NCBI GenBank assembly: GCA_019454125.1
Contig: CP075365.1
Span: 488,218 to 552,217 of the forward strand
Origin: Fimbriimonadaceae bacterium
GTDB lineage: Bacteria; Armatimonadota; Fimbriimonadia; Fimbriimonadales; Fimbriimonadaceae
Length of the DNA: 64,000 nucleotides
Direction of reading: 5' to 3'
Shown in pieces: positions 1 through 27,134 of this stretch. The position numbers were made by a program, and so were the translations under genes. Within the stretch, counting starts at the first letter, position 1. The number at the start of each line of letters is the position of its first letter. A model generated the notes under the pieces. The model ran no database searches and had not been told where the DNA came from. It was given only the letters and a program-made list of their open reading frames with translations.

Positions 1-2835
1 TGCTTCAGGGTTTATGGTGCGTAGCCACGAAAGGTCAAGGCCCACGATATCGACGTTCCCGGTCAACTCATCGTCACCAGAAAGCGACCCATTAGCAGTC
101 AGAAGACCAGCGCCAGTGTTCCATTCTAGAGAGCTCAAATCAAAGTCTGTGCTTGCTTTCGAGCCGGATAGGGTAAGCGCTCCAGCTTGGCGTCCGCTAA
201 CGACCAAGTCACTCAGCGTGACTGATAGATAAGGGATTTCTGCGGAGCCGCCCGAAGATCTCGCCATGACCGTGCCAGAGCCGTTACCGGCTAGCGATTC
301 TAGAGTGTTGCGAAGGGTCGCATCCTCAAGACTCCAACTAGCCTTCGACGCTGCGATCAGGGGGCCGAGGTCGACGTTATAGGCCAACGCTTCAGCCGTC
401 CAGCTCCGGTCTTCTGTGTCAAGGTTCAACGCTGAAAGCTCAATATATCTTTCAACCGTGCCGAGGGTGCCATTAGCGCTAAGGTTGCGGCCGACAAGGT
501 TCGCTTCCAAAGTTCCGCTGCCCAATAGGGCGCCCGAGGCCGTCAAGTCTGTCAAGCGACCTTCGAGCCGGCCACTGCTTGACACGCCAGCGCCGCCAGC
601 GCCGAAGAACGTTGCAGATAACGCGCCGGTCAACGGGACATCTGCCGTCAGATCTCTTGGTACCTGCCTTAAATTTAAAGCGGTAACGGTGCCCTGCCCC
701 GACCACGCTTTGCTGCGAATATCATAAGTGCCGCTTGCTTCTGCTGTTCCCCCAAGCACCGAAACCTGTAGCTCTTCAACTGTCACCGTGCTTCCTTTGA
801 GAAGGAAGCGACTCGGCTTCATGCTGGCCTCCGATCTGAGCAGATAAAGATTGTTCGATTCTAGGGTAGCTTCAACAATCGGATCCTCAAGTGAGCCACT
901 GATGACCCCGTTTCGAACCGAGACAGTTCCAAAAACGTCAGGAGTATCAAGGTCAGGAATACGGAAGTTCCTCCCCGAAAAAGTACCGCGAAGGTTCCCT
1001 GAATTAACATTCAGGGAGGCCCTTCCGAAAACAGAGCCGTTGAGTGCCGTAGCGATAATACGATCAGCGACAATCTCCTGATTCTTGTACGTGCCGCTTA
1101 CGACGGCATCATTAAACACGCTGGATGTCTCGCCCCTACTCTTTGCTGCTAGCTCGTACGTAATCAGCGGGGCATCGTATGTCCCCGTTATCGATGAACG
1201 ACCGTTGACAAGGACTCTCGCGCCTTCCGCTTCGGTGCGCACTTCGACATTCTCAGCGGCGACCTGGAACGCGAGCTTCCGGTTTGCGAGGTTCGCCTCA
1301 CCACGGGCCAAGAGGTTGCCCTCCTGAGAAGTGCCGGCAAACTGCCGTAAAAGCAAAGTATCGCCCTTTATGGACGCCCTTGCTGTGTAGTTAAACCGCT
1401 TATCACCAAGCTGCGGTAAGTCTCGGACGAGCCACGAACCGCGCGAAAAAACCTCAACGTTCGGCCGCGCCAGCGGGCCTTCCACAAGGATCTCGGCGTC
1501 GCCAGTCCCGGCCAGATAAGGAACGTCGTAGCGCTGGCCGATTTTGGCCAAGTCGAGTCGCCGCGCGTCAATCCGAGCATGTACCGAGTTGCGTGCTAGA
1601 TCGAGAATTCCCGAAGCCTGAAACCGCTGGTTTTCGTAGGAGCCCGAGGTGCTAGAGAGGGCCAGCAGTTTGTCGTTTAGGACAAACCTTGTGGTTATAT
1701 TGCTTAACAGCTGGCCTTCGGCCACAATCCTGCTAGCACGAAAGAGGCCCTGTGCATAGACTTTTTCACCCTCCGTCGCCACCTTTCCCTTAGCATCGAG
1801 TTGCGAATACTGCAAGTCTCGAGGAAGTAGCTTGGTAATCTCGGAGGGAAGACCCCTTCTAGATGCAGAGGTCAAGCGGGCATCAGCGACCAATTTGGGG
1901 CTAGGTTCCCACTGTAGAGCGCCTTTCGCGGATAAAGTGTCTTGTGCTTGTGAGACATTGGCTACGACATTGGTCGTTATAGAGTCGCCAGACGCAATGA
2001 TCCGTACGCGAGCATCGTTAAGGTATCCCGGTAAGTTGACAGAATCCCCTTCGATCGAGACCGTGCCGTAGGCGAGGGGTTTGGAATCTGCCGTTCTCAG
2101 AAACTCGATGGTCCCGTCGACGCTAAATCGTTCGGCCGTCCAACTTGGTATCGACTCGGAGGAACTTTCAACAAGTCGCGTGATAAAGGGAAGGGCGCTT
2201 CGATAATCCGAGTTCCTTGATTGCAGCCGGACCCAGAGTAGATCATGCGACCCGGTTTGGACCGTTAACTCCGAACGCCTGATCCCGGGTGCAGAGACTG
2301 TGCCGTGCGAAAGGGACAAATCACCGCTTGATGCAACGTTGAGCCCTTCCACGAGTAGTTTAGTGGAGAGTTGCGGCGATTTAGAAGAGTCGATATAGGT
2401 TATGCTTACGGAATCAATCGCGAGCGTAAAAGGTGTCTCTTCCCCCTTTGGGGGGCCACCAGGAACCAAATCGATGATATCGTAGCTACCGCCACCCAGG
2501 TGTTCGACGGTCATGTCTCCTTGGGTAGCAACAACCGCAATGGTTCCTCCGACCATGCGGATATCAGCCCGAGAAACTCGTGCGATAGTGCGTTTAGCTC
2601 CCTCAATGCTCAGGCCGGTTAGATGAGCCTGTCGCATTTCGAGATCAACGCTATAGTTCTCTACGCGTATCCTGAACGTCTTCCCGCCATTGTTATAAGG
2701 GAGCGAAGCAGGCGTTCCCGGGGATAACAGAACTTGAAAGCAGGCAATTGCATAGAGTCCGCCCATAAAAAGGATGAGCGACGGCACAACCCATTGAAAC
2801 AAGGGGAGCAAGAGCCGTTGCAAAATCCCGTACAT
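1..2835 (-). CDS. AsmA/TamB-like large envelope-assembly protein (N-terminal ~945 codons; 3' end lies beyond the window start)
   Basis: Absent from the ORF track because there is no stop in the window. Hand translation from ATG at 2835 gives MYGILQRLLLPLFQWVVPSLILFMGGLYAIACFQVLLSPG..., an N-terminal TM anchor. The same frame is still open at nt 3 (...NGSLSGDDELTGNVDIVGLDLSWLRTINPEA). No competing ORF above about 105 aa occurs on either strand across 2.8 kb. The repetitive G/S/T/N/L beta-rich composition is typical of AsmA/TamB. I did not translate every codon. Confidence 0.5.
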   Translation of the reverse strand, partial: MYGILQRLLLPLFQWVVPSLILFMGGLYAIACFQVLLSPGTPASLPYNNGGKTFRIRVENYSVDLEMRQAHLTGLSIEGAKRTIARVSRADIRMVGGTIAVVATQGDMTVEHLGGGSYDIIDLVPGGPPKGEETPFTLAIDSVSITYIDSSKSPQLSTKLLVEGLNVASSGDLSLSHGTVSAPGIRRSELTVQTGSHDLLWVRLQSRNSDYRSALPFITRLVESSSESIPSWTAERFSVDGTIEFLRTADSKPLAYGTVSIEGDSVNLPGYLNDARVRIIASGDSITTNVVANVSQAQDTLSAKGALQWEPSPKLVADARLTSASRRGLPSEITKLLPRDLQYSQLDAKGKVATEGEKVYAQGLFRASRIVAEGQLLSNITTRFVLNDKLLALSSTSGSYENQRFQASGILDLARNSVHARIDARRLDLAKIGQRYDVPYLAGTGDAEILVEGPLARPNVEVFSRGSWLVRDLPQLGDKRFNYTARASIKGDTLLLRQFAGTSQEGNLLARGEANLANRKLAFQVAAENVEVRTEAEGARVLVNGRSSITGTYDAPLITYELAAKSRGETSSVFNDAVVSGTYKNQEIVADRIIATALNGSVFGRASLNVNSGNLRGTFSGRNFRIPDLDTPDVFGTVSVRNGVISGSLEDPIVEATLESNNLYLLRSEASMKPSRFLLKGSTVTVEELQVSVLGGTAEASGTYDIRSKAWSGQGTVTALNLRQVPRDLTADVPLTGALSATFFGAGGAGVSSSGRLEGRLTDLTASGALLGSGTLEANLVGRNLSANGTLGTVERYIELSALNLDTEDRSWTAEALAYNVDLGPLIAASKASWSLEDATLRNTLESLAGNGSGTVMARSSGGSAEIPYLSVTLSDLVVSGRQAGALTLSGSKASTDFDLSSLEWNTGAGLLTANGSLSGDDELTGNVDIVGLDLSWLRTINPEA

Positions 2836-2847
2836 GGGCTAACACGC

Positions 2848-3744
2848 TTAGCGTATCGGAATGGGTTGCAGATCTTCCAGTCGCGAGGACAGCACTTTCT
2901 CGCTAAACGCAATCGCGTTATAGGAACTGCGGATAAAGGGGCCGCTAGCCACGAACGAGAACCCAAGTTCGGCACCGATCGTCTCATATTCTTTAAAGAT
3001 CGACGGATGCACGTACTCGACAACGGGCAAGTGGCGCATGGTGGGGCGCAGATACTGCCCGATTGTAACGGCGTCAACGTTAGCTTGGCGGAGATCGCGC
3101 AGTGTCGCTACGACTTCGTCTTGGCTCTCGCCGAGACCAAGCATGATTCCCGACTTCGTAAAGATGTACGGATATTCGAGCTTGACGTTACGCAAGACCG
3201 AGAGGGTTCGATCGTACTTGGCTTGCGGGCGCACAATAGTGTGAAGTCTTGCAACCGTCTCGATGTTATGGTTGTAGATGTCGGGTTTGGCTTCGCAAAC
3301 AGTGCGGATGCACTCCAAATCTCCGCGAAAGTCTGGCGTGAGAACTTCGACGATAACGCCGGGAACCACTTCCTGCAAGGCTTTAATCGTTTCGGCAAAT
3401 TGTGCCGAGCCTTGATCCTTAAGGTCGTCTCTGGCGACGCTGGTGACGACGACGTGGCGCATCCCCATATCCCGAGCCGTCAGTGCCACATTCTTGGGTT
3501 CGTCAGGATCCACGGACAGCCCGCGTCCGACCTTGATTGCACAGAACCCACAGCTGCGAGTGCATGTGTCCCCGAGGATCATAAACGTCGCGGTTTTCTT
3601 GCTCCAACACTCGGGCAAGTTTGGACATCGAGCACTCTCGCAGACGGTATGAAGGTTCTTAGACCGAACCATTTGCTGGACGTCGCGAATGGTATCAGGG
3701 CGGGGAAGCCGGATCGTCAACCACTCAGGCAACCTTTGCGCCAT
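2848..3744 (-). CDS. lipA: lipoyl synthase
   Basis: 298-aa ORF with the radical-SAM motif CTRSCGFC and the N-terminal auxiliary-cluster motif CESARCPNLPEC; full-length match to the LipA architecture. Confidence 0.95.
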   Translation of the reverse strand: MAQRLPEWLTIRLPRPDTIRDVQQMVRSKNLHTVCESARCPNLPECWSKKTATFMILGDTCTRSCGFCAIKVGRGLSVDPDEPKNVALTARDMGMRHVVVTSVARDDLKDQGSAQFAETIKALQEVVPGVIVEVLTPDFRGDLECIRTVCEAKPDIYNHNIETVARLHTIVRPQAKYDRTLSVLRNVKLEYPYIFTKSGIMLGLGESQDEVVATLRDLRQANVDAVTIGQYLRPTMRHLPVVEYVHPSIFKEYETIGAELGFSFVASGPFIRSSYNAIAFSEKVLSSRLEDLQPIPIR

Positions 3745-15933: not shown

Positions 15934-16443
15934 ATGAGAAAACACCTGATTCTCGCCGCGCTCGGCCTGGCCGCCCTTGCACCTGCCCAAACGGTGCAAA
16001 CCCCGACAAACCTTGCGTTTAGGATCGGCTACGTCTATCCGATCGATGCCAAGACCCGCGACAGTGTCCGCAACTTCTTCGGCATCGGAGCGGAGTACTT
16101 CTTCAACCACAGCCTCGTTCGGAACGGCGAGCTGACGCTTTCCGCCGACTGGCTTGGCAAGACCGGCAGCGGTGACAAGGGGAACATCTTTCCGATCTTC
16201 CTGAACCAGCGGTTCTATGGCGGGTCGCGCACCGGCGACGAGTACAACCGGAGCTACTTTTACGTTGGTGCAGGAATCGCGATCGTAGACGTCACCCGCA
16301 CGGACACCGTCTTGGCCGCCCGTGTCGGCTGGGGCATGGAGTTCGGTGAGCACCTCTTCGGCGAGACCACGCTCATCCACAGCGACGACGCTTCGGGCGC
16401 CCGCGCCACGAGCCTCGGCTTCTACCTCGGCTACCGCTTCTAA
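15934..16443 (+). CDS. small outer-membrane beta-barrel protein
   Basis: 169 aa. Signal peptide MRKHLILAALGLAALAPAQT, alternating amphipathic strands, and an aromatic C-terminus ...GFYLGYRF typical of OMP barrels. Confidence 0.6.
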   Translation: MRKHLILAALGLAALAPAQTVQTPTNLAFRIGYVYPIDAKTRDSVRNFFGIGAEYFFNHSLVRNGELTLSADWLGKTGSGDKGNIFPIFLNQRFYGGSRTGDEYNRSYFYVGAGIAIVDVTRTDTVLAARVGWGMEFGEHLFGETTLIHSDDASGARATSLGFYLGYRF

Positions 16444-16496: not shown

Positions 16497-17231
16497 TCAG
16501 TCTAGGTCGGCCATGGCGGCCAAAGTCTCTTCGTCCGACAGGCTGCGCGACCCGTTCCGGTCCAGCACGTAGACCGCAGGCGGGACTTTGCGGAGGCCCC
16601 CGGTAGCCGAGTCCAAATCGGCGGCGATTTCCAGCATCCTGAGCGCGTCTTGCAGCACCTGGTGTTGGTTGCGGGCCGCCCAGGGCCCTTTCGTCCGGAT
16701 CAGATATTCAAAGACCCCCCGGATCCGCTCCGAGCCGGAACCCGCGCACGCATAGTCCGCATTTTGGAACCGGGCGCCCGCCGCATCGAAAAAGTAAACG
16801 CCGAAGCGGTCGGCCCGAGGATCATAGGCGGCTGCGATCGGAAGGAACATACCGATGCCGGAGGCGGCGGCCGGAATGTTGCCTTGGAGCGCCCGCGAGA
16901 TCTCCATCAGTTTCCCCTCGGTCGAGATCTCAACCAAGTTCAGCCTCTCGTAGTACTTGAAGGCGTGGCGAAGGTAGCGCGAGACCTCCAAGGATCGGCC
17001 ATAAGCGCCGCTCACCGCGACCACAGTGAACCGGTCCAGCGGCACGATCTTGTCCGCATGGTCGAACATGATCAAGTTGCCCGCGGTCGCGCGGCGGTCT
17101 GCCACGACGAGGCAACCGGCATCATAGTGCAAGGCGATGACGGTGGTGCCGTGCACCTCGCCAATGGGGCCGGCGGCCACGGGCTCGAAGCCGACCAGCT
17201 CCCGAAACGACGCGGCGTTCGGCGCTGTCAC
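16497..17231 (-). CDS. prcB: proteasome beta-type subunit (PrcB-like)
   Basis: 244 aa. A propeptide is followed by HG/TTVIALHYDAGCLVVADRRATAGNLIMFDHADKI. Counting from the first Thr gives T1, D17 and K33. The protein aligns along its whole length with actinobacterial PrcB as I remember it. Confidence 0.85.
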   Translation of the reverse strand: MTAPNAASFRELVGFEPVAAGPIGEVHGTTVIALHYDAGCLVVADRRATAGNLIMFDHADKIVPLDRFTVVAVSGAYGRSLEVSRYLRHAFKYYERLNLVEISTEGKLMEISRALQGNIPAAASGIGMFLPIAAAYDPRADRFGVYFFDAAGARFQNADYACAGSGSERIRGVFEYLIRTKGPWAARNQHQVLQDALRMLEIAADLDSATGGLRKVPPAVYVLDRNGSRSLSDEETLAAMADLD

Positions 17232-17413
17232 TGGCCTGATCGCTGGCGGTACTTTTTCGCCTGCTCCGGGTCGACGCGCTTCATGCGCTTTAGCAGCTCG
17301 TTCGGAGCGTCCGGACGACCGATATCGGGCTTAGTGGGCCCCTCGTCGTCCCCCGTCTTGCGTGACGGCTCTTCGAATTCCCGGCGGAGAGTGCGGTCGA
17401 ATGAAATCGTCAT
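17228..17413 (-). CDS. UBact/Pup-like small protein modifier
   Basis: 61 aa, low-complexity and likely disordered. The C-terminal half ...PNELLKRMKRVDPEQAKKYRQRSGQ matches the UBact consensus as I recall it (LLKRM+.VDP.QA++YRQR[ST]G[EQ]). It has 4-nt ATGA-type overlaps with both neighbours. Confidence 0.75.
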   Translation of the reverse strand: MTISFDRTLRREFEEPSRKTGDDEGPTKPDIGRPDAPNELLKRMKRVDPEQAKKYRQRSGQ

Positions 17414-18894
17414 GTGTCTCCTTTTACTACGGTCTCCAGCTCGCTGATCGCGCGGGCGTTTTCGATCCCCGGGCCATAGTCCTTGCCGGGGTCGAGCGCC
17501 AACCGCACCTCGCGGCCCTCATCACTGAGGCTAAGGCTGCCCCAGGATACTCCGGCGAGGCTCGGGAGAAACTCCTTGACCGCCTGGGAGCGGACCCGGG
17601 CGCGGTTGCTCTCGAAGACGCTCGTCATTCGTGCCCGGACTATTGCGTCCTCTGGAAATGGGTCGATTCGGGCCATTTGGGCGAGGGCGGGCACGAGTCC
17701 CTCGTCGGGGTCCAGGTCGTGGTAGGCCAGGTCCAGTGAGCGGAGGGTCGGGTCGTTCCAAGCCAGCCCTTCCGACTCGCGAAACTCATCGAGCAGGCGT
17801 TTCTTGGCGAGCCAGTCGATGCGCCGGGCCGCTCTGTCCCCCTCCCCAGCCAGGTCGGCGAGCAGCGATTCAGCCTCGTCGCAGACGGCGAGGAGCTCTG
17901 ACGCCTCAGGATCGGCGACGAACGTGCGGCGAAAGGCATCTGTGTAAGACTCAATGATCTGGCGGGCGGTGGTCCAATTCGCGCCCTCCAGGTCGATCCG
18001 GCCCTCTCCCCGATGCGACCGGCTCACGCTCTGGGCCGCTTTCGGCGGGCTGGGGATGCGCCAAACCGGGGCCTCTTCGGCCATCGCTAAGAGCAAGGCG
18101 ACCTTGACGAGTCCGGCCTTCCGGTGGGTGGCGGCGGGAAGCATGTTGGCGTCGCCGCTGATGACGTGCAGGCGGATCCACTGACCGGGGTCGCCGTGGG
18201 GCTCGTCCCGAGTGTTGAAGACAGGGCGGCGGTAGAGGGTCTCCGCGTTTGCCGCCTCGACAAAGAAATCTGCCCTTTGCGAAAGCTGGTAGTCACAAGG
18301 TCCTAGCGCCTCGCTCCCGACCTTGCCCGCGCCGCACAGAGCGATCCTCGCCACGAGCATCGGCATGACGGCGCGGTAGAGCGCCTCGAAGCCGAGCGGC
18401 CTCGGGACAAGGTAGCTCTCGTGGGTGCCATAGGAGGCACCGTGCCCGTCCGAATTGTTCTTGAAGACCTTTGTCCGGAGCCCCGTCAGGGCTTCGTAGG
18501 CTTCGGCCGTCCGCCGAAGCCACTCCTCGCCCGCCATGTCGTGGAGCGTGAGCTCTTCCAGGCTCCAGCATTCCGGCGTGGCGTATTCGGGATGGCCGTG
18601 GTCGTTGTAAAACCGCGCGCCGTTGGGCAACACCCGGTCTGATCGGACGGCCTGGTCGGACTGATGGACCCTGCCTGTATCGAACTTGGCGTCTTCCGGA
18701 TCGAATGCGAGCCGATCTAGCTTGAACCCGCGAAGGTCTGCCCTGGGGCTCTCAAAACGGTAGTCCCAACCTACGAACGCCCGCGCCGGAAAGGCGCGGA
18801 CGAATTCGGCACTGTCCTCGACCTGGTCTTCCGCCCCGCGGCCCTGGATCGAGAGCCCGTACTCGGTCTCGATCCCGGCCAGGACGCGGAACAT
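17410..18894 (-). CDS. dop: Pup-ligase-family enzyme, Dop-like (deamidase/depupylase type)
   Basis: 494 aa. GIETEYG, NGARFYNDHGHPEYATPEC, FKNNSDGHGASYGTHESY and NTRDEPH are motifs of the PafA/Dop family. The insertion WDYRFESPRADLRGFKL...(about 35 aa) before NGARFY resembles the Dop-specific loop rather than PafA. Confidence 0.85.
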   Translation of the reverse strand: MFRVLAGIETEYGLSIQGRGAEDQVEDSAEFVRAFPARAFVGWDYRFESPRADLRGFKLDRLAFDPEDAKFDTGRVHQSDQAVRSDRVLPNGARFYNDHGHPEYATPECWSLEELTLHDMAGEEWLRRTAEAYEALTGLRTKVFKNNSDGHGASYGTHESYLVPRPLGFEALYRAVMPMLVARIALCGAGKVGSEALGPCDYQLSQRADFFVEAANAETLYRRPVFNTRDEPHGDPGQWIRLHVISGDANMLPAATHRKAGLVKVALLLAMAEEAPVWRIPSPPKAAQSVSRSHRGEGRIDLEGANWTTARQIIESYTDAFRRTFVADPEASELLAVCDEAESLLADLAGEGDRAARRIDWLAKKRLLDEFRESEGLAWNDPTLRSLDLAYHDLDPDEGLVPALAQMARIDPFPEDAIVRARMTSVFESNRARVRSQAVKEFLPSLAGVSWGSLSLSDEGREVRLALDPGKDYGPGIENARAISELETVVKGDT

Positions 18895-20178
18895 TTATCT
18901 GAGGACCACGAAGCTTCCCGTCGTCGGGAAGGGGAAGCCGGCTGGCGGCGTGTCCACCACGAAATCGCCGGTCCGGAGAATCCCGTTCGGCTTTGTAAAG
19001 GTGATCCGGGCATTGGCCACCTTGTCCGCACTGCCGTCTCGAATCTGTTCGAGGCTGAAGAGCTTCACCGTGCCCCCTGTCGCCGAGGTCAGCGAGGCGA
19101 CGCCTTGCCAAAGGGCGGTGACCTTGCCGGTCGCGTTGCGCTGGAAGGCCACGACCTGCATGGCATTCTGGTCGCGCGTCCCGGGCAGGAACACCATGGC
19201 GAAGTCAGGGATGTTCGAAAGGACTTCGGTATAGGGGCGGAAGAAGCCTTGGAGGGCGACGATCTTCGCCTCGTCGACCAGCGGGTCTCGCGGGTCGGGC
19301 TCGCGGACCGTATAGGTCCCCGGTGCCGGGCGTCCGCCGAGCACTGTGGCCTTCTTCAAGATGCCGGTCTCAATCACGACCGGGTCGAGCAACTCGAAGG
19401 AGTCGGTCTCGTCGTACCCCGCGGAGATGCCAATGCTGTCCCCGGAGAAGTGGACCATCTCGGCGGGCTTGCCGTTGCCCAGTTTCGGCCGCTGGGCCTC
19501 GGGCATCGTCGTGACGTCGAAGGCGACCATGTCGCTCAGGAACCCATTGATCTTCTTGTTGTACTCCGCGTAGTTCTCGTCGATGAACTGCTGGCGGTTG
19601 AAGATGATGCCGTTGACGTTGTCGAACCGCAGCATCGCGTCGTTCAGGTTGACCTGGATGGTCGTCTGACGGCCTGGGAAAAGTTTCGCGTCGAGGTCGA
19701 AATACGGCCGGAATTCGATGGGAGGACCGCCATAGACGGTGCTGAAACCGCTCGCACCCTGCTCGTCCATCTGGGCGATCTCCAGGGGGAACTGGGTGTA
19801 GGTCTTAAATGGGATCCCAGCGGCCACCGGAACGCTGAACACAGCTTGGTTAATGGTGTAACCATCGAGCTGGATGCGGACCGGGGAGGCAGAACCCTGC
19901 TGCTCCTTAGGTTCAAAGTCGGTCGGCGAATTGTAGATTCGCGCGTTGCGGATGACCGCGATCTGCGAGCCGACGGCGCGCCGGCCTTGACCGGACAGGT
20001 ACAGGATTTGAACCTGGGCGTTATTGCCAAGGTTCACGGTCGGGATGCCGCGGCCACCGCCGCCGCCACCACCGTTTCCTCCACCACCACCGTTGTTGCC
20101 GTTACTATTCTCGGCGCTAACGCCGCCACAGCCGATGACAAGCGCACCAGCGACGAATACAAGACACCACTTCTTCAA
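18895..20178 (-). CDS. lipoprotein with Gly/Asn-rich linker (unknown family)
   Basis: The track ORF runs to 20247 (GTG). The in-frame TTG at 20178 is preceded by GAGGTG at a 6-nt spacing and gives MKKWCLVFVAGALVIGC|GG (lipobox), followed by ENSNGNNGGGGGNGGGGGGG. Its stop codon abuts the ATG of the Dop-like gene with zero spacer. Confidence 0.55.
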   Translation of the reverse strand: MKKWCLVFVAGALVIGCGGVSAENSNGNNGGGGGNGGGGGGGRGIPTVNLGNNAQVQILYLSGQGRRAVGSQIAVIRNARIYNSPTDFEPKEQQGSASPVRIQLDGYTINQAVFSVPVAAGIPFKTYTQFPLEIAQMDEQGASGFSTVYGGPPIEFRPYFDLDAKLFPGRQTTIQVNLNDAMLRFDNVNGIIFNRQQFIDENYAEYNKKINGFLSDMVAFDVTTMPEAQRPKLGNGKPAEMVHFSGDSIGISAGYDETDSFELLDPVVIETGILKKATVLGGRPAPGTYTVREPDPRDPLVDEAKIVALQGFFRPYTEVLSNIPDFAMVFLPGTRDQNAMQVVAFQRNATGKVTALWQGVASLTSATGGTVKLFSLEQIRDGSADKVANARITFTKPNGILRTGDFVVDTPPAGFPFPTTGSFVVLR

Positions 20179-20343
20179 GCCGTCCACCTCAGTGACCCAG
20201 GGCACGCGCAACGATACCTGACAAGAAGCCCCGTCAGGGCGGCGCACTGTTACTACTGGGACGAGCCAGGCTCCCGAAATCGTTCATCAAGCCGAAGAAA
20301 GTCGGCCCGAGGAGCGGGTCCCGTGTAAAATGTGGGGTGTCTC

Positions 20344-22855: not shown

Positions 22856-23239
22856 TCAACTCCCGCTCGTGACGGGGTCGGTCGGGAGGCCGTAAAGGTC
22901 GGACCGGATCGCGTGGCCCAAGTCTTCGTCGGGCATGCTCGCGTGCTTCTGCCTCGTGTTGATCACGTGCTGCTGTTCGCGGACGCGCCGGCGGACCAGG
23001 AGCGCTTCCTTCGCCACCTGGAGGTGGTGGAGCGCGACCTCGTTCTCCTTGCACGCCATGTCACGGCCCTGGTGGTCGAGCAAGCGCTCGATGAGCACGT
23101 CGATCACGTCTTCCAGGCGGCACCCGTTGATCCCGTGTTCGACCACCGAGCCGCGCTGAAAGACGATGTGGATGAAGGGTTGGCAGACGAAACCGTCCGA
23201 ACCGTCCATACCACGCCATTTGTCCATGTCTACTGCCAT
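22856..23239 (-). CDS. small hypothetical protein with a phage-associated helical-hairpin-like motif
   Basis: 127 aa. IHIVFQRGSVVEHGINGCRLEDVIDVLIERLLDHQGRDMACKENEVALHHLQVAKEALLVRRRVREQQ. It overlaps the upstream ORF by 10 nt. Family assignment is from memory only (see findings). Confidence 0.5.
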   Translation of the reverse strand: MAVDMDKWRGMDGSDGFVCQPFIHIVFQRGSVVEHGINGCRLEDVIDVLIERLLDHQGRDMACKENEVALHHLQVAKEALLVRRRVREQQHVINTRQKHASMPDEDLGHAIRSDLYGLPTDPVTSGS

Positions 23240-23846: not shown

Positions 23847-25211
23847 CTACTTGTCGCGGCGGCGTGGCGGTGGCGTAGGGTTGTTCGGCTCCACGATCGG
23901 CGTCGGTGTGGGCGAAACGTCGATCCGGTGCACGGGTTCGGGAACGTACGGCGCTGGTCTCTCGGGCTCCTTCGAGGCCATCTCCGCCAACTTCGCGGCG
24001 ACGTCGATGCCGAAGACTTCCTTCACTTGGGCGTTCATGGCGAGGAGCTTTCCTGCGTCCATGCCGCCGTTGGCCGCCCTTGTGTCGATCACCGTCAGTT
24101 TCTCGATCTTGGTCTTGCCGATGGTCTCGGTCAGCTGGCGGATGATCGGCTCGATCTTCTGCAAGATGAAGATCTCTCGCGCCTGGTCGCCGGCGTCAGT
24201 CCAACTCTCGGCGAGCCTGGTGAGGGCGTCCGCGCGGGCGCGGCCGTCCTCGACGATCGGCGCCACTGCGGCTGCCGCCTGCTGCTCCAAGGCTTCGCAC
24301 TCGGCCTTGGCCGGGGCGACGACGTCGGCTTCCAACTGGCGGCGGACCTGCTCGATCCTCGCCGCCTGCACCTTGATCTCCGCCTCCGCCTTGGCCAGCA
24401 TTGCCGCGACGTCCGCGTTCTGCTCCGCAACCACCGCGTCCCGGCGGGTGACCGCGTCGGTCAGCCCCTTGTCTGCGTCCGCCTTGGCGACCGAGATCTG
24501 GGCTCGGATTTGGGCCTCGACCTCTTTAAGTTCGTTCTCGGCGCTCCGGATGGCGGAGTCGGCTCGGGCGGTGGCCTCCGCGACACGGGCCGAAGAGAGG
24601 AGTTCCGCGCTGCGGATACGGCCGATGGAGTCCAAGTACTTCACGTCGTCGGTGATGTTCTGGACCTTCAGCGTGTCCACGACCAGCCCGAGCGCGGTCA
24701 TATCCTGCTCGACTTCTTGCACCAGCCTCTCTGCAAAGAGGTTGCGGTCCTCGTTCACCTGTTCGGGGGTCAGCGTCGCTAGCACGCCGCGCAAAGAGCC
24801 TTCCAGGGTCGCCTTGGCAATGCCCATGATTTCCTGCCGCCCTTTGCCGAGGAAGCGCTCGATGGCGTTGTTGAGCACTGGTTCGTGGCCCGCGACCTTC
24901 ACGTTCGCCACGCCTTGGACGTTGAGCGGCACGCCGCCCTTGCCGTAGGCGCCGATCGCGTTGAGCTCGATGATCATGTTCGTCAGGTCGAGCCCGTCCA
25001 CCTTCTCAAGGAACGGGTTGCGCAAGGTGCTGCCCCCCTTGACCACTCGGTAGCCGATCTTACGGTCGCCCGAGCGCCGGTTCCGGCCGCTGAAGATCAA
25101 CACCTGGTTCGGGCCGCAGACGAAGAAGATCGAGCCCATGCTGACGAACAGCAGGAGGCCGAAGGCCGCGAAGGCCCCGAGAATGATGCCGACGATGATC
25201 GGGATGTTCAC
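23847..25211 (-). CDS. flotillin-like SPFH/Band-7 protein
   Basis: 454 aa with an N-terminal hairpin anchor, an SPFH domain (ATLTPEQVNEDRNLFAERL) and a long Ala/Glu-rich coiled coil, i.e. the FloT/YuaG-type architecture. Confidence 0.88.
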   Translation of the reverse strand: MNIPIIVGIILGAFAAFGLLLFVSMGSIFFVCGPNQVLIFSGRNRRSGDRKIGYRVVKGGSTLRNPFLEKVDGLDLTNMIIELNAIGAYGKGGVPLNVQGVANVKVAGHEPVLNNAIERFLGKGRQEIMGIAKATLEGSLRGVLATLTPEQVNEDRNLFAERLVQEVEQDMTALGLVVDTLKVQNITDDVKYLDSIGRIRSAELLSSARVAEATARADSAIRSAENELKEVEAQIRAQISVAKADADKGLTDAVTRRDAVVAEQNADVAAMLAKAEAEIKVQAARIEQVRRQLEADVVAPAKAECEALEQQAAAAVAPIVEDGRARADALTRLAESWTDAGDQAREIFILQKIEPIIRQLTETIGKTKIEKLTVIDTRAANGGMDAGKLLAMNAQVKEVFGIDVAAKLAEMASKEPERPAPYVPEPVHRIDVSPTPTPIVEPNNPTPPPRRRDK

Positions 25212-26503
25212 TTTCCACCTTCCTTCCCGCGGACCGTCGCGGGGATGTCGATTCCGGTCGTCTTTTCGATCGCCTCAAAGACCGATCCCAGCATCTCCGG
25301 GTATGCCGCGATGTAATTCGGCAGGGTGCGCCCGTCGCCGGAGTCGATCACGTTGAGGCTCTGGACCTCGATCCGCTTGACCCCGTCGACCGCCGCCTGG
25401 ATCAGTTTCTCAAGGTCTTCAATCACGGCGATCTGCTTCGCGCTCGGGCCCGCCTTCGACCACGCCTCATGGAGAAGGTCGAGCGCTTCGCTCACCGCCC
25501 GGCCGCGCTCGCGAATGAGCGCCGCGCGCCCGCGCGCCTTGAACTCTTCGGCTTGGCGCGCCGCTTCCGACGGCAAGACCTGGTCAGCCTGCAGGCGCAA
25601 AGTTTCGAGCTGGGAACGGACTTCCTGGAGCTTTTGCTCCGCCTTGGCACGCGCTTCGCGCGCAGCCGCCGTCGTGCGCTCCTCTTCGGAATCCACCCGG
25701 GATTTGAGGTCGGCCTGGATCGTCCGCAGCTCGTTCTTCAAACGCGCCGCTTTCGCCTGGCATTCTGCCGCGACAACCTTGGCCCGGCCGATGGCCTCAG
25801 CCTCCGCTTGTTCGGCGTTCCGCTTGGAGTCCGACTCGGCGATGGTCGCCTCTCGCACGACGTTCGCGATAGCCTTGCGGCCCGTCGCGTCGAGGTAGGC
25901 GACTTCGTCGCCGACGTGCAAGATCTTCAGGGTGTCAAGGTGGAGTCCGAGCTTCGCGAGGTCCTCCTCCGTCTCCCGCGCCAGGGCTTCCGCGAAGACC
26001 AGGCGGTCTTCGTTCACCTGCTCCGGGGTCAAGGTCGCGACGACGCCGCGCAAATGCCCCTCCAATGTCTCTTTCGCGACCCGACGGATCTCGCCCGGGT
26101 CGCGTCCGACGAACCTCTCCACCGCGTTCGAGAAGACCCGCTCGTCGCTGCTGATCTTTACGTTCGCGATCGCATCGATGTTCATCGGGATGCCGCCGCG
26201 CGAGTAGGCGTTGCGGACCGAGATGGGAACCTCCATCAAGGTCAGGCTCAGCCGGTCGATCTTGGTGAGGGCGGGGATCGCCCAGCAATAGCCGCCGATG
26301 ATGGGGCGGTAACCGCGCCGGCGGCCGTCCATGCGGCTGCCGCTCATGAAGCCCGAAACGATGAGGGCTTCGTTGGGGCCGCAGATGCGCCGGAATGTCC
26401 GCGTGACGATGAGCACGGCCAGGGCCAAGCCCAGGACGACGAGGCCCGAGACGACCGCCCAGCCCACTGGGGCGGCGGTCCTTATCAGTTCCGGAAGGTC
26501 CAT
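25208..26503 (-). CDS. flotillin-like SPFH/Band-7 protein (paralog)
   Basis: 431 aa with the same architecture (ATLTPEQVNEDRLVFAEAL...). It has a 4-nt overlap with the downstream paralog. Confidence 0.88.
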   Translation of the reverse strand: MDLPELIRTAAPVGWAVVSGLVVLGLALAVLIVTRTFRRICGPNEALIVSGFMSGSRMDGRRRGYRPIIGGYCWAIPALTKIDRLSLTLMEVPISVRNAYSRGGIPMNIDAIANVKISSDERVFSNAVERFVGRDPGEIRRVAKETLEGHLRGVVATLTPEQVNEDRLVFAEALARETEEDLAKLGLHLDTLKILHVGDEVAYLDATGRKAIANVVREATIAESDSKRNAEQAEAEAIGRAKVVAAECQAKAARLKNELRTIQADLKSRVDSEEERTTAAAREARAKAEQKLQEVRSQLETLRLQADQVLPSEAARQAEEFKARGRAALIRERGRAVSEALDLLHEAWSKAGPSAKQIAVIEDLEKLIQAAVDGVKRIEVQSLNVIDSGDGRTLPNYIAAYPEMLGSVFEAIEKTTGIDIPATVRGKEGGK

Positions 26504-26507
26504 CTCT

Positions 26508-27134
26508 TTATTCTCCCAGGTATTCCGACTTGCGGGCGACCCGGGCTTGACCCCGTTCGATACCGACGATCAAGACTTCCTCGCCTTGTTCGACGTCCGA
26601 CCCCGAGTCGCTGACGGCAATCATATCGATCAAGTCACCACGAATACTTGTCCTGACCTTGCCCGGTTGCGCGCCTCGGACGGCGACTGTCACGCGCCCG
26701 ACCGAACCTAGAAAGTCGCCTTCGGCGATGCTGCTGTTGTTGTCAGGAGCGCCGAGCAGCCGGATCAGGTACGCCGCCGCCCAACCGATGCAGAGCCCGG
26801 TCACGCCCGCGATGGCCATGGTGGCCGGCTCCGTGCTCGCCTTGAGCAAGTTCAGAGCCACTCCGAGCACACCGAAGGACCCGATAAAATAGGTCCAAAA
26901 CCGGAGCGAAAAGAAGGGTAGCCAGAAACTGCCCGCGCTGACCGCGTCGTGCGAGGCTCCGTGGCCGTGGAGAGGCGCGTCTGTTTCGGCCGTGTGGTCG
27001 AAGGCGCCTTCGACGTCGTGGCCCCCCGCGTCCGCTCCTGAGTCGAGGTGGCCATGGCCCAGGGCGCCGCCCAGGGCCGAGACCAGCACGAAGCCGCCCC
27101 CCAAGATCGCGCAGAAGATGTAAAGCGCCAACAT
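26508..27134 (-). CDS. NfeD/YqiJ-like membrane protein
   Basis: 208 aa with TM helices, a His/Asp/Gly-rich loop and a C-terminal OB-like segment (GSVGRVTVAVRGAQPGKVRTSIRGDLIDMIAVS). It holds the classic position upstream of the flotillin genes. Confidence 0.7.
   Translation of the reverse strand: MLALYIFCAILGGGFVLVSALGGALGHGHLDSGADAGGHDVEGAFDHTAETDAPLHGHGASHDAVSAGSFWLPFFSLRFWTYFIGSFGVLGVALNLLKASTEPATMAIAGVTGLCIGWAAAYLIRLLGAPDNNSSIAEGDFLGSVGRVTVAVRGAQPGKVRTSIRGDLIDMIAVSDSGSDVEQGEEVLIVGIERGQARVARKSEYLGE

What the first reader, a model, noticed from the sequence alone, without database searches (positions are those of the whole stretch)
17228..17413. 61-aa modifier ends in Gln (…KKYRQRSGQ), yet the only family enzyme nearby looks like Dop, not the ligase
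The sequence is MTISFDRTLRREFEEPSRKTGDDEGPTKPDIGRPDAPNELLKRMKRVDPEQAKKYRQRSGQ. In Pup biology a C-terminal Gln must be deamidated to Glu by Dop before PafA can ligate it. The adjacent enzyme carries a WDYRFESPRADLRGF segment plus a roughly 35-residue insertion before NGARFYNDHGHPEY. As I remember the M. tuberculosis sequences, that is the Dop-specific loop region, which PafA lacks. The locus therefore encodes a pro-modifier and its activator/remover but no obvious conjugating enzyme. Either a single enzyme does both jobs, or the ligase is unlinked.
Basis: partly seen in the sequence, partly recalled or inferred. Interest (0 to 1): 0.65.

Follow-up and report, generated by a model that had tools for sequence, protein, structure and literature searches.

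The report
UBact tag with Dop-type enzyme only
The small gene encodes UBact, a known bacterial ubiquitin-like tag, in an operon that keeps only the tag, its Dop-type activating and removing enzyme and one proteasome subunit, so where the attaching enzyme is encoded remains open.

Summary
A 61-aa ORF on the minus strand (17228-17413) is a clear UBact (Pfam PF20513, 78.8 bits) ending in RSGQ.

The adjacent 494-aa enzyme is a Dop orthologue, not a PafA. It has the Dop loop with the conserved Trp. The catalytic Asp, Arg, His and Thr are invariant. Its best sequence and fold matches are Dop structures. It sits inside the Dop clade of Armatimonadota that also carry PafA (bootstrap 93-94%).

Enzyme, UBact and a catalytically intact proteasome beta subunit overlap start-to-stop, and RNA-seq contigs from sludge samples cover them. 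The same three-gene operon, with no Mpa, PrcA or PafA within about 10 kb, recurs in 18 further Fimbriimonadaceae-type loci, including two complete chromosomes. Related lineages show 4-, 5- and 6-gene versions, so this operon is a reduced form of the canonical locus.

The terminal residue is Q in 11 and E in 8 reduced loci, against 8 and 9 in two-enzyme loci. It does not track enzyme number.

I found no PafA-like shift in the enzyme and no relaxed conservation in UBact. An unlinked ligase is therefore the most likely answer, but I could not scan whole genomes. A truly single-enzyme system remains possible (about 0.15-0.2).

The parts
17228..17413 (-). UBact, a 61-aa prokaryotic ubiquitin-like modifier ending ...YRQRSGQ. 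Its ATG overlaps the stop of the upstream enzyme gene (ATGA at 17410-17413). Its stop overlaps the GTG of the downstream beta-subunit gene (GTGA at 17228-17231).
   Evidence: Translation. PF20513 78.8 bits and NF033388 77.6 bits. Orthologues in L002-L018 and L022. Overlaps read from the sequence. RNA contigs span 17117-17400.
17410..18894 (-). 494-aa Dop-type enzyme of the Pup-ligase/deamidase family, an orthologue of the UBact-system depupylase/deamidase.
   Evidence: PF03136 413 bits. TIGR03688 Dop 322.9 bits against TIGR03686 PafA 244.2 bits. PDB Dop 4b0r/5lrt 274 bits over the full length against PafA 4b0t 182 bits from residue 85. Foldseek TM 0.82-0.88 to Dop and 0.73-0.77 to PafA. Trees.
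18625..18783 (-). Dop loop (residues 38-90) with the conserved WDYxxExPRxDxRGF motif. W43 corresponds to Acidothermus Dop W47.
   Evidence: Alignment to Acidothermus Dop. W43, E48, D53, R55 and G56 are invariant in relatives. The loop is absent from PafA-like proteins. The loop's role is described in PMC8599861.
18571..18621 (-). Active-site strand NGARFYNDHGHPEYATPE (residues 92-108) with catalytic Asp98, equivalent to Acidothermus Dop D94. It lacks the one-residue PafA insertion (D-x-V-G-S-H).
   Evidence: D98, H99, H101, P102 and E103 are invariant.
18229..18267 (-). Alpha-loop region (residues 210-222, FFVEAANAETLYR). T219 is equivalent to Dop T217, which hydrogen-bonds the terminal residue of Pup.
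   Evidence: T219 is invariant. AlphaFold predicts no helix of 4 or more residues here, at low confidence, while a PafA-like control gives a helix at 214-222, also at low confidence. The role of T217 is from PMC8599861.
16497..17231 (-). 244-aa bacterial 20S proteasome beta subunit (PrcB-like). It has a 28-residue propeptide and catalytic Thr at residue 29 (HG|TTV), plus Asp17, Lys33, GSGS and DSATGG. No alpha-subunit gene follows it.
   Evidence: PF00227 71 bits and TIGR03690 123.9 bits. Best PDB matches are Rhodococcus and M. tuberculosis PrcB, with query residue 29 aligned to mature residue 1. Alignment with canonical PrcBs. No PrcA by tblastn.
18895..20247 (-). Lipoprotein-like gene of about 436-450 aa with no known domain. 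It abuts the enzyme gene with 0 nt between them. It is conserved at this position only in the reduced loci and occupies the place of Mpa in canonical loci. It is probably co-transcribed. Membership of the system is unproven.
   Evidence: no family hit. Conserved upstream neighbour at 25-48% identity in L003-L014, L016-L018 and L022. RNA contigs cover 19407-19883.

Best explanation
What it is. The window comes from an Armatimonadota bacterium of the Fimbriimonadaceae type (NCBI GCA_026129715.1, found in wastewater and sludge). The locus is the core of a UBact-proteasome system: a Dop-type enzyme, UBact and a proteasome beta subunit. The three genes overlap start-to-stop and are transcribed in situ.

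How it arose. It is a reduced derivative of the canonical six-gene locus (Mpa, Dop, UBact, PrcB, PrcA, PafA) that other Armatimonadota still carry.

How it most likely works:
- UBact is made with a C-terminal Gln.
- The Dop-type enzyme deamidates that Gln to Glu. By analogy with Dop, it uses bound ADP and phosphate, with Asp98 as base and Arg229 and His243 holding the phosphate.
- The same enzyme later removes UBact from modified lysines.
- A PafA-type ligase attaches UBact-Glu to lysines. That ligase is not in this locus and is most likely encoded elsewhere in the genome, as are the alpha subunit and an unfoldase.

What is shown: gene identities, operon structure, conservation of the operon, Dop orthology, intact catalytic residues, and the derived origin of the locus.

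What is inferred: deamidase and depupylase activity, by homology only, and the existence of unlinked partner genes.
For: Identity of the three genes.

Operon structure: ATGA and GTGA overlaps. RNA-seq contigs at 99% identity or more cross the UBact/PrcB junction and cover the enzyme gene.

Conservation: the same three-gene arrangement occurs in 14 genome loci and 4 metagenome loci, with about 286 kb of flanks free of Mpa, PrcA or PafA.

Derived state:
- Six-gene loci: L021, L026, L096, L097.
- Five-gene Fimbriimonadia locus: L099.
- Four-gene Fimbriimonadales loci: L019, L020, L098.
- The reduced-locus enzymes form one clade (bootstrap 100%) nested in the Armatimonadota Dop clade (93-94%) and in the UBact-type Dop clade (98%).

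No shift towards a ligase:
- All positions conserved in both Dop groups are kept.
- Only four clade-specific substitutions exist, none at known catalytic sites.
- Motifs equal those of Dops that have a PafA partner.
- Against Table 1 of PMC7947786, my by-eye mapping gives about 11 Dop-state, 3 PafA-state and 8 neither-state positions.

UBact is not relaxed: mean pairwise identity is 0.83 in the C-terminal 26 aa and 0.51 in the middle region. In lineages with more complete loci the values are 0.77 and 0.47, and the P.RK.GD..GP..PD motif is shared.

The beta subunit has no indels relative to PrcBs that have an adjacent alpha subunit.

Components do disperse in this class: Mpa is already missing from the locus in L099, L098 and L020.

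Wild-type Dop has no detectable ligase activity (PMC7947786).
Against: No whole genome of the reduced-locus lineage could be scanned, so the unlinked ligase is only inferred.

Gene order is otherwise rigid across phyla (PMC3511204; 17 canonical loci). Relocating three genes from both flanks therefore needs several events.

A search with the closest available alpha subunit, listing hits down to 49% identity, gave no hit named Fimbriimonadaceae. None lay on the large contigs that carry the reduced loci.

The reduced-locus enzyme and beta subunit sit on longer branches: about 25% and about 12-15% more distance to outgroups. That could reflect changed constraints after loss of partners.

The enzyme falls below NCBIfam's Dop equivalog cut-off (322.9 against 492.3). 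So do the Dops of canonical UBact loci (408.8 and 469.7).
Confidence: 0.55

Rival explanations
1. A truly single-enzyme system. The Fimbriimonadaceae lineage has lost PafA, PrcA and Mpa. The Dop-type enzyme forms the same gamma-glutamyl-phosphate intermediate as PafA and passes it either to water or to a lysine. It would thus act as deamidase, ligase or transamidase, and remover in one protein.
For: No second family member in the 64-kb window or in about 286 kb of flanks of 18 orthologous loci, two of them on complete chromosomes.

The enzyme is retained and conserved in the 8 of 19 loci whose UBact already ends in Glu and needs no deamidation.

Stepwise shrinkage of the locus from 6 to 5 to 4 to 3 genes within the phylum.

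A longer branch for the reduced-locus enzymes.

Engineered Dop variants can do both reactions, and the ancestor is proposed to have been promiscuous (PMC7947786).

No Fimbriimonadaceae alpha subunit appeared.
Against: No sequence change towards PafA. The Dop loop, the strand without the insertion and a Dop-like alpha-loop are all kept, and there are only four clade-specific substitutions away from known catalytic sites.

Wild-type Dop shows no ligase activity, and conversion required replacing the alpha-loop plus further mutations (PMC7947786).

Retention of Dop alongside Glu-ended tags is also normal in two-enzyme systems, where Dop acts as the remover.

Absence from the whole genome was not tested.
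Confidence: 0.18
2. No conjugation at all. In this lineage UBact acts non-covalently, for example as a regulator or adaptor of the Dop-type enzyme or of an alpha-less beta-subunit protease. Alternatively the module is a decaying remnant.
For: No ligase, ATPase or alpha-subunit gene lies in the locus. The beta subunit has no adjacent alpha partner.
Against: A remnant is excluded. More than 120 clusters (at 90% identity) of orthologous enzymes share 52-62% identity with intact catalytic residues. The genes overlap and are transcribed.

The terminal G-[EQ] is kept in all 19 loci, and Q and E keep interchanging exactly as in conjugating systems. That is hard to explain without chemistry at that side chain.
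Confidence: 0.1
3. Ligation is carried out by an unrelated enzyme. Candidates are another carboxylate-amine ligase or the beta-subunit homologue acting as a transpeptidase. (From my own recollection, the archaeal proteasome-beta relative Connectase is a protein ligase.)
For: Only circumstantial: the beta subunit is the one other enzyme always coupled to UBact in the reduced operon.
Against: The beta subunit is an ordinary PrcB with no distinctive change relative to canonical relatives. No other candidate gene is conserved in the flanks except a lipoprotein-like gene and an outer-membrane protein gene.
Confidence: 0.04

Closest known systems
UBact (Lehmann et al. 2017, BBRC 483:946; Pfam PF20513; NCBIfam NF033388), the Pup homologue of Gram-negative phyla
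   Same: Length of about 60 aa, a conserved C-terminal half ...LLKRMKRVDPxQAKxYRQR[ST]G[EQ], and a position directly after a Dop-type gene and before prcB. HMM scores are well above both curated cut-offs.
   Different: By my recollection of that paper, which I could not read here, and in the 17 canonical loci I fetched, the UBact locus also contains Mpa, PrcA and PafA. Here and in 18 related loci those three are missing.
Dop, the deamidase/depupylase of actinobacterial Pup (PDB 4B0R, 5LRT, 7OXV; TIGR03688)
   Same: Full-length alignment. Dop loop with the conserved Trp. Catalytic Asp, phosphate-binding Arg and His, and the Thr that contacts Pup's last residue. Fold TM 0.82-0.88. Placement in the Dop clade.
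   Different: About 33% identity to Acidothermus Dop. The strand reads YNDHGHPEY instead of YVDHAHPEY, and the alpha-loop sequence differs. These differences are shared by all UBact-type Dops. The score is below the equivalog cut-off. No PafA partner lies in the locus.
PafA, the Pup ligase (PDB 4B0T, 4BJR; TIGR03686), and the PafA-like genes of canonical UBact loci
   Same: Same superfamily and fold, the same Pup-binding groove, and the shared GxExE and RxxH motifs.
   Different: PafA lacks the Dop loop, has the D-(x)-V-G-S-H insertion and forms a helix in the alpha region. The window protein has none of these features. It scores 244 bits against 323 bits for Dop.
Single-copy Dop/PafA homologues of Planctomycetes, used as outgroup in Hecht et al. 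2020 (PMC7947786)
   Same: One family member per locus or genome, with partial alignment to the Dop loop.
   Different: The planctomycete proteins are 29-31% identical to both Dop and PafA and branch outside both clades. The window enzyme is nested inside the Dop clade next to lineages that have PafA, so its single state is secondary.
Actinobacterial Pup-proteasome locus (mpa-dop-pup-prcB-prcA ... pafA)
   Same: Same gene order for dop, tag and prcB. The tag's terminal Gln or Glu varies between species. The ligase can lie kilobases away, for example in L088.
   Different: The tag type differs (YRQRSG[QE] against YVQKGG[EQ]). There is no alpha subunit or Mpa in the locus. The phylum is different.

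Membership tests
UBact (PF20513 / NF033388) | Family HMM score above the curated cut-off | tested here: met
   78.8 bits against 27.8 (Pfam) and 77.6 bits against 35 (NCBIfam equivalog).
UBact (PF20513 / NF033388) | C-terminal R-[ST]-G-[EQ] available for side-chain conjugation | tested here: met
   The protein ends ...YRQRSGQ. All 18 orthologues end RSG[QE].
UBact (PF20513 / NF033388) | Encoded next to a Dop/PafA family gene and proteasome genes | tested here: met
   The gene lies between the Dop-type gene and prcB, with overlapping codons.
UBact (PF20513 / NF033388) | Covalent attachment to lysines of target proteins | not testable with these tools
   This needs proteomics or in-vitro assays. 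To my knowledge it has not been shown for any UBact.
Dop (depupylase/deamidase) | Dop loop of about 40-65 residues before strand beta2, with the conserved Trp | tested here: met
   The loop region (residues 38-90) is 53 aa with WDYRFESPRADLRGF. W43 aligns with Acidothermus W47 (PMC8599861).
Dop (depupylase/deamidase) | Catalytic Asp, phosphate-holding Arg and His, and the alpha-loop Thr contacting Pup's last residue (Acidothermus D94, R227, H241, T217) | tested here: met
   D98, R229, H243 and T219 are invariant in 30 close and 33 wider relatives.
Dop (depupylase/deamidase) | NCBIfam TIGR03688 equivalog cut-off (492.3 bits) | tested here: not met
   322.9 bits. Dops of canonical UBact loci also fall short at 408.8 and 469.7 bits. 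The cut-off therefore excludes every UBact-type Dop I scored, not only this enzyme.
Dop (depupylase/deamidase) | Phylogenetic placement in the Dop clade rather than the PafA clade | tested here: met
   Neighbour-joining trees with 300 bootstraps place it in the UBact-type Dop clade (98%) and the Armatimonadota Dop clade (93-94%). These are distance trees only. No maximum-likelihood tree was made.
Dop (depupylase/deamidase) | The alpha region is a loop, not a helix | tested here: inconclusive
   AlphaFold gives no helix of 4 or more residues at 205-230, but pLDDT is below 50. The PafA-like control gives a helix at 214-222, also with pLDDT below 50.
Dop (depupylase/deamidase) | Deamidation of tag-Gln and cleavage of tag-lysine isopeptides, with no ligase activity | not testable with these tools
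   Biochemical assay needed.
PafA (Pup ligase) | No Dop loop, one-residue insertion in the catalytic strand (D-x-V-G-S-H-P-E-Y), and TIGR03686 cut-off of 551.3 bits | tested here: not met
   The loop is present, there is no insertion (YNDHGHPEY), and the score is 244.2 bits aligned only from residue 85.
Bacterial 20S proteasome beta subunit (PrcB, TIGR03690) | Ntn-hydrolase active site: Gly-1/Thr1, Asp17, Lys33, and the Ser/Asp/Ser cluster | tested here: met
   HG|TTV with Thr at residue 29, ADRR, HADK, GSGS and DLDSATGG.
Bacterial 20S proteasome beta subunit (PrcB, TIGR03690) | Equivalog cut-off (191.9 bits) and an adjacent alpha subunit (PrcA) | tested here: not met
   123.9 bits; the PrcB of canonical locus L021 scores 146.4 bits. 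No PrcA in the window or in the flanks of 18 related loci. Whether one is encoded elsewhere was not testable.
Complete UBact/Pup-proteasome system | Tag, Dop, PafA, Mpa, PrcB and PrcA all present in the genome | not tested
   Only the window and 20-kb loci could be read.

The most novel reading that the evidence does not exclude
Fimbriimonadaceae run a minimal tagging module with no PafA, Mpa or alpha subunit. A natural Dop-type enzyme would be the only family member and so would both activate and attach UBact. It might do this by phosphate-mediated transamidation of the terminal Gln onto lysines. The module would feed a proteasome beta subunit that works without an alpha ring. That would be a living example of the promiscuous hydrolase/ligase state that Hecht et al. 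obtained only by engineering.
Probability: 0.15. Interest if true: 0.8.

Novelty: new variant of a known kind. Interest (0 to 1): 0.5.

Why it matters
UBact systems have been described only by genomics. Pup biology holds that Dop and PafA are strictly specialised opposites.

This is a whole bacterial family in which the operon keeps only the Dop-type enzyme, the tag and a beta subunit, alongside sister lineages with 4-, 5- and 6-gene versions. That gives a natural series for three questions:
- Can a wild-type Dop scaffold ligate?
- Can a PrcB-type beta subunit work without its alpha ring?
- How does a modification pathway get dismantled or dispersed?

If the partner genes simply sit elsewhere in the genome, the finding is an ordinary but previously unremarked rearrangement of a known system.

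Tried and rejected
1. PafA identity for the 494-aa enzyme: rejected.

2. Basal, pre-duplication position like the planctomycete homologues: rejected. The enzyme is nested in the Armatimonadota Dop clade.

3. Correlation of terminal Q or E with the number of enzymes: tested and absent.

4. Signature of neofunctionalisation. No column conserved in both Dop groups is changed in the reduced clade. Only four clade-specific substitutions were found. The first Arg of the YRRLH motif is replaced (WIRLH), but it is neither universal in the clade nor conserved in PafA-like proteins. I did not use it.

5. Search for an unlinked ligase with the PafA-like protein of the closest canonical locus. The 120 listed hits stop at 60% identity. 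The one Fimbriimonadia PafA I later found (L099) is 58% identical, so the absence of Fimbriimonad names in that list is uninformative.

6. Search for an unlinked alpha subunit. Only the four-gene Fimbriimonadales lineage and other Armatimonadota were found. This is suggestive, not conclusive.

7. The top 150 representatives contain no UBact-type PafA. Naming them would not have helped.

8. The original UBact paper is not held. No paper on UBact or Pup in Armatimonadota, or on natural bifunctional Dop/PafA, was found.

9. Promoter and terminator scans of the operon gave nothing above the shuffled background.

10. PADLOC gave no defence-system hit for the operon proteins.

11. The first bootstrap run with 118 taxa timed out. 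It was repeated with 44 and 53 taxa.
Full report
**1. The observation**

The quoted 61-aa protein is encoded on the minus strand at 17228-17413. The plus-strand frame is full of stops. It scores 78.8 bits against Pfam PF20513 (UBact, cut-off 27.8) and 77.6 bits against NCBIfam NF033388 (cut-off 35). It is therefore a member of an already named family, the Pup homologue of Gram-negative phyla (Lehmann et al. 2017, cited in PMC12751074; the paper itself is not held).

The gene upstream (17410-18894, minus, 494 aa) is a PF03136 Pup-ligase family protein at 413 bits. The gene downstream (16497-17231, minus, 244 aa) is a proteasome subunit. The enzyme's stop overlaps the UBact start (ATGA). The UBact stop overlaps the GTG start of the beta-subunit gene (GTGA). 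A further gene of about 450 aa with no known domain ends directly before the enzyme's ATG.

tblastn with the enzyme and the beta subunit finds no paralogue anywhere in the 64 kb. tblastn with Mpa, PrcA and PafA-like proteins from a canonical relative also finds nothing.

**2. Is the enzyme Dop or PafA?**

- HMM scores: Dop model 322.9 bits over residues 5-462; PafA model 244.2 bits from residue 85 only.
- Solved structures by sequence: Acidothermus Dop scores 274 bits over the full length. Corynebacterium PafA scores 182 bits from residue 85 to chain residue 51, which means about 34 extra N-terminal residues in the window protein.
- Those extra residues are the Dop loop. WDYRFESPRADLRGF aligns with WDFEEENPLRDARGF of Acidothermus Dop, and W43 matches W47, the conserved loop Trp described in PMC8599861.
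- The loop region is 53 aa here against 11-14 aa in canonical PafA representatives.
- The active-site strand reads YNDHGHPEY without the PafA insertion. Armatimonadota PafA-like proteins read YIDAVGSHEEY.
- D98, R229, H243 and T219 correspond to Acidothermus D94, R227, H241 and T217. All four are invariant in 30 close and 33 wider relatives.
- Against the 20-odd discriminating positions in Table 1 of PMC7947786, my reading of the alignment gives about 11 Dop states, 3 PafA states (two of them variable within the clade) and 8 that are neither. The "neither" states are shared with UBact-type Dops that do have a PafA partner.
- The AlphaFold model (pLDDT 84.7) superposes better on Dop (TM 0.82-0.88) than on PafA (0.73-0.77).
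- The alpha region has no helix in the model, while a PafA-like control from Chthonomonas has one at 214-222. Both regions are low-confidence, so this is weak evidence.

**3. Source and relatives**

The exact protein lies on NCBI GCA_026129715.1, contig JAHCHM010000002.1 (586 kb), and on a 2.65-Mb contig. The top 120 homologues share 52-62% identity. The named ones are almost all Fimbriimonadaceae or Fimbriimonadales MAGs, which NCBI annotates as "PafA2 family protein".

They include two complete chromosomes (OZ248539.1 and CP075366.1) and a 2.83-Mb contig. Every one has enzyme, UBact and beta subunit, and nothing else from the system within about 10 kb.

A metagenome scan with a profile of Dop-like relatives returned 80 more loci. 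Sorting all of them, and adding four loci (L096-L099) fetched later by protein look-up, gives these types:

| Type | Gene content | Loci |
|---|---|---|
| (a) Reduced | Dop, UBact, PrcB | L001 (the window's own locus), L002-L018, L022 |
| (b) Four-gene | Dop, UBact, PrcB, PrcA | L019, L020, L098 (thermophilic Fimbriimonadales MAGs) |
| (c) Five-gene | Dop, UBact, PrcB, PrcA, PafA, no adjacent Mpa | L099 (a Fimbriimonadia MAG) |
| (d) Canonical six-gene | Mpa, Dop, UBact, PrcB, PrcA, PafA | L021, L026, L096, L097 and other Armatimonadota loci, plus other phyla |
| (e) Mpa plus Dop-like only | No tag, no proteasome genes | 19 loci |
| (f) Actinobacterial Pup loci | Tag ends YVQKGG[EQ] | several loci |

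**4. Phylogeny**

In neighbour-joining trees with 300 bootstraps:
- The reduced-locus enzymes are monophyletic (100%).
- They lie inside the Armatimonadota Dop clade together with Dops of four-, five- and six-gene loci (93-94%).
- They lie inside the UBact-type Dop clade, which excludes actinobacterial Dop (98%).

Their exact sister group is unresolved. Their branch is about 25% longer than that of canonical relatives. The beta subunit's branch is about 12-15% longer. The one-enzyme state is therefore secondary, unlike the basal planctomycete homologues used as outgroup in PMC7947786. These are distance trees only.

**5.

Terminal residue:
- Reduced loci: Q in 11, E in 8.
- Two-enzyme loci: Q in 8, E in 9.
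- L008 and L009 (E) and L011 (Q) are otherwise identical.
- The Gln is an evolutionarily labile state found in both architectures, not a mark of the one-enzyme loci.

Neofunctionalisation:
- No column conserved in both Dop groups is altered in the reduced clade.
- Only four clade-specific substitutions exist (D27, T157, A266, V359), none at known catalytic sites.

Relaxation:
- UBact is as conserved in the reduced clade as in lineages with fuller loci. This holds for the enzyme-binding C-terminal 26 aa (0.83 against 0.77) and for the middle P.RK.GD..GP..PD segment (0.51 against 0.47).
- By analogy with Pup, that middle segment would contact the ATPase.

Beta subunit:
- It keeps Thr1, Asp17, Lys33, GSGS and DSATGG.
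- It has no indels relative to PrcBs that have an alpha neighbour.

These results argue that the usual partners still exist. They give no support for a change of catalytic function, but they are indirect.

**6. Expression**

Sludge metatranscriptome contigs at 99% identity or more cover the beta-subunit gene, the UBact/beta junction (17117-17400), the enzyme gene and the upstream lipoprotein-like gene. DNA carry-over in these libraries cannot be excluded.

**7. What could not be done**

Whether a PafA-like gene, an alpha subunit or an Mpa lies elsewhere in these genomes is the decisive question.

- A protein search with the nearest canonical PafA-like protein listed only hits at 60% identity or more. 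The one Fimbriimonadia PafA (L099) is 58% identical, so that list is uninformative.
- A search with the nearest alpha subunit reached 49% identity. It showed no Fimbriimonadaceae-named protein and none on the large contigs that carry the reduced loci. This is a weak hint of absence.

**8. Verdict**

The identity of the genes is secure: a UBact, a Dop orthologue and a PrcB-type beta subunit in one transcribed operon.

The operon is a reduced variant of a known system and is conserved across a bacterial family. I found no description of it in the searchable literature.

The most likely mechanism is the standard one: the Dop-type enzyme deamidates UBact-Gln and removes UBact from proteins, and a PafA-type ligase encoded elsewhere attaches it (confidence about 0.55). 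A system truly without PafA, in which the Dop-type enzyme also ligates, is not excluded (about 0.15-0.2). It would be of high interest, because wild-type Dop is reported to have no ligase activity and only engineered variants show both activities (PMC7947786).

Noticed in passing
L029, L030, L032, L033, L036, L038-L040, L042, L044-L047, L051, L055, L059, L060, L064, L070: Nineteen metagenome loci have an Mpa-type ATPase directly followed by a Dop-like gene (Dop loop, NDHAHPEY). They have no small ORF ending G[EQ] and no PrcB, PrcA or PafA on the contig. L042 has 10 kb on each side. They form their own subclade of UBact-type Dops. The phylum is unknown.
   Followed up: partly
window 18895-20247 (-): A lipoprotein-like protein of about 436-450 aa (LVIGC lipobox, Gly/Asn-rich linker) with no Pfam, NCBIfam or PADLOC hit. 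It abuts the Dop-type gene and is conserved at that position only in the reduced loci (25-48% identity), where Mpa sits in canonical loci. RNA contigs cover it.
   Followed up: partly
window 15934-16443 (+): An outer-membrane beta-barrel gene (PF13505, 28.5 bits, just under the cut-off) lies convergent with the beta-subunit gene. It is syntenic in many reduced loci.
   Followed up: partly
window 22856-23239 (-): The precomputed annotation lists PF24729 Acb2_Tad1_hairpin (a phage anti-defence sponge domain) for this 127-aa product. hmmscan against the held Pfam copy and PADLOC gave no hit. The gene lies beside two SPFH/Band_7 genes (23847-25211 and 25208-26503) and a weak NfeD-like gene (26508-27134).
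   Followed up: partly
L009 (CAMAPH010000005.1): The record is titled Chthonomonas calidirosea MAG. Its locus is the reduced Fimbriimonadaceae type, and its UBact sequence is identical to that of L008 (Fimbriimonadaceae MsE-15). True C. calidirosea carries a PafA-like gene (P0376). The MAG is probably mislabelled.
   Followed up: no
window 18169-18183 (-), residues 238-242 of the enzyme: Most reduced-locus enzymes read W-[IVLMT]-R-L-H where nearly all other Dop and PafA proteins read Y-R-R-L-H. L010 and L013 keep W-R-R. Armatimonadota PafA-like proteins have His at that position. The significance is unknown.
   Followed up: partly
L099 (GCA_026129765.1), 1167-3253: A CRISPR-Cas adaptation and processing cluster (Cas2, Cas1, Cas6) lies a few kb upstream of the five-gene UBact locus of this Fimbriimonadia MAG.
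   Followed up: no
one search hit names: JGI names orthologues of the same Dop-type protein inconsistently, as 'Pup amidohydrolase', 'proteasome accessory factor A' or 'hypothetical protein'. NCBI gives both the Dop-type and the PafA-type proteins of UBact systems the same name, 'PafA2 family protein'. Database names therefore cannot be used to count ligases.
   Followed up: yes
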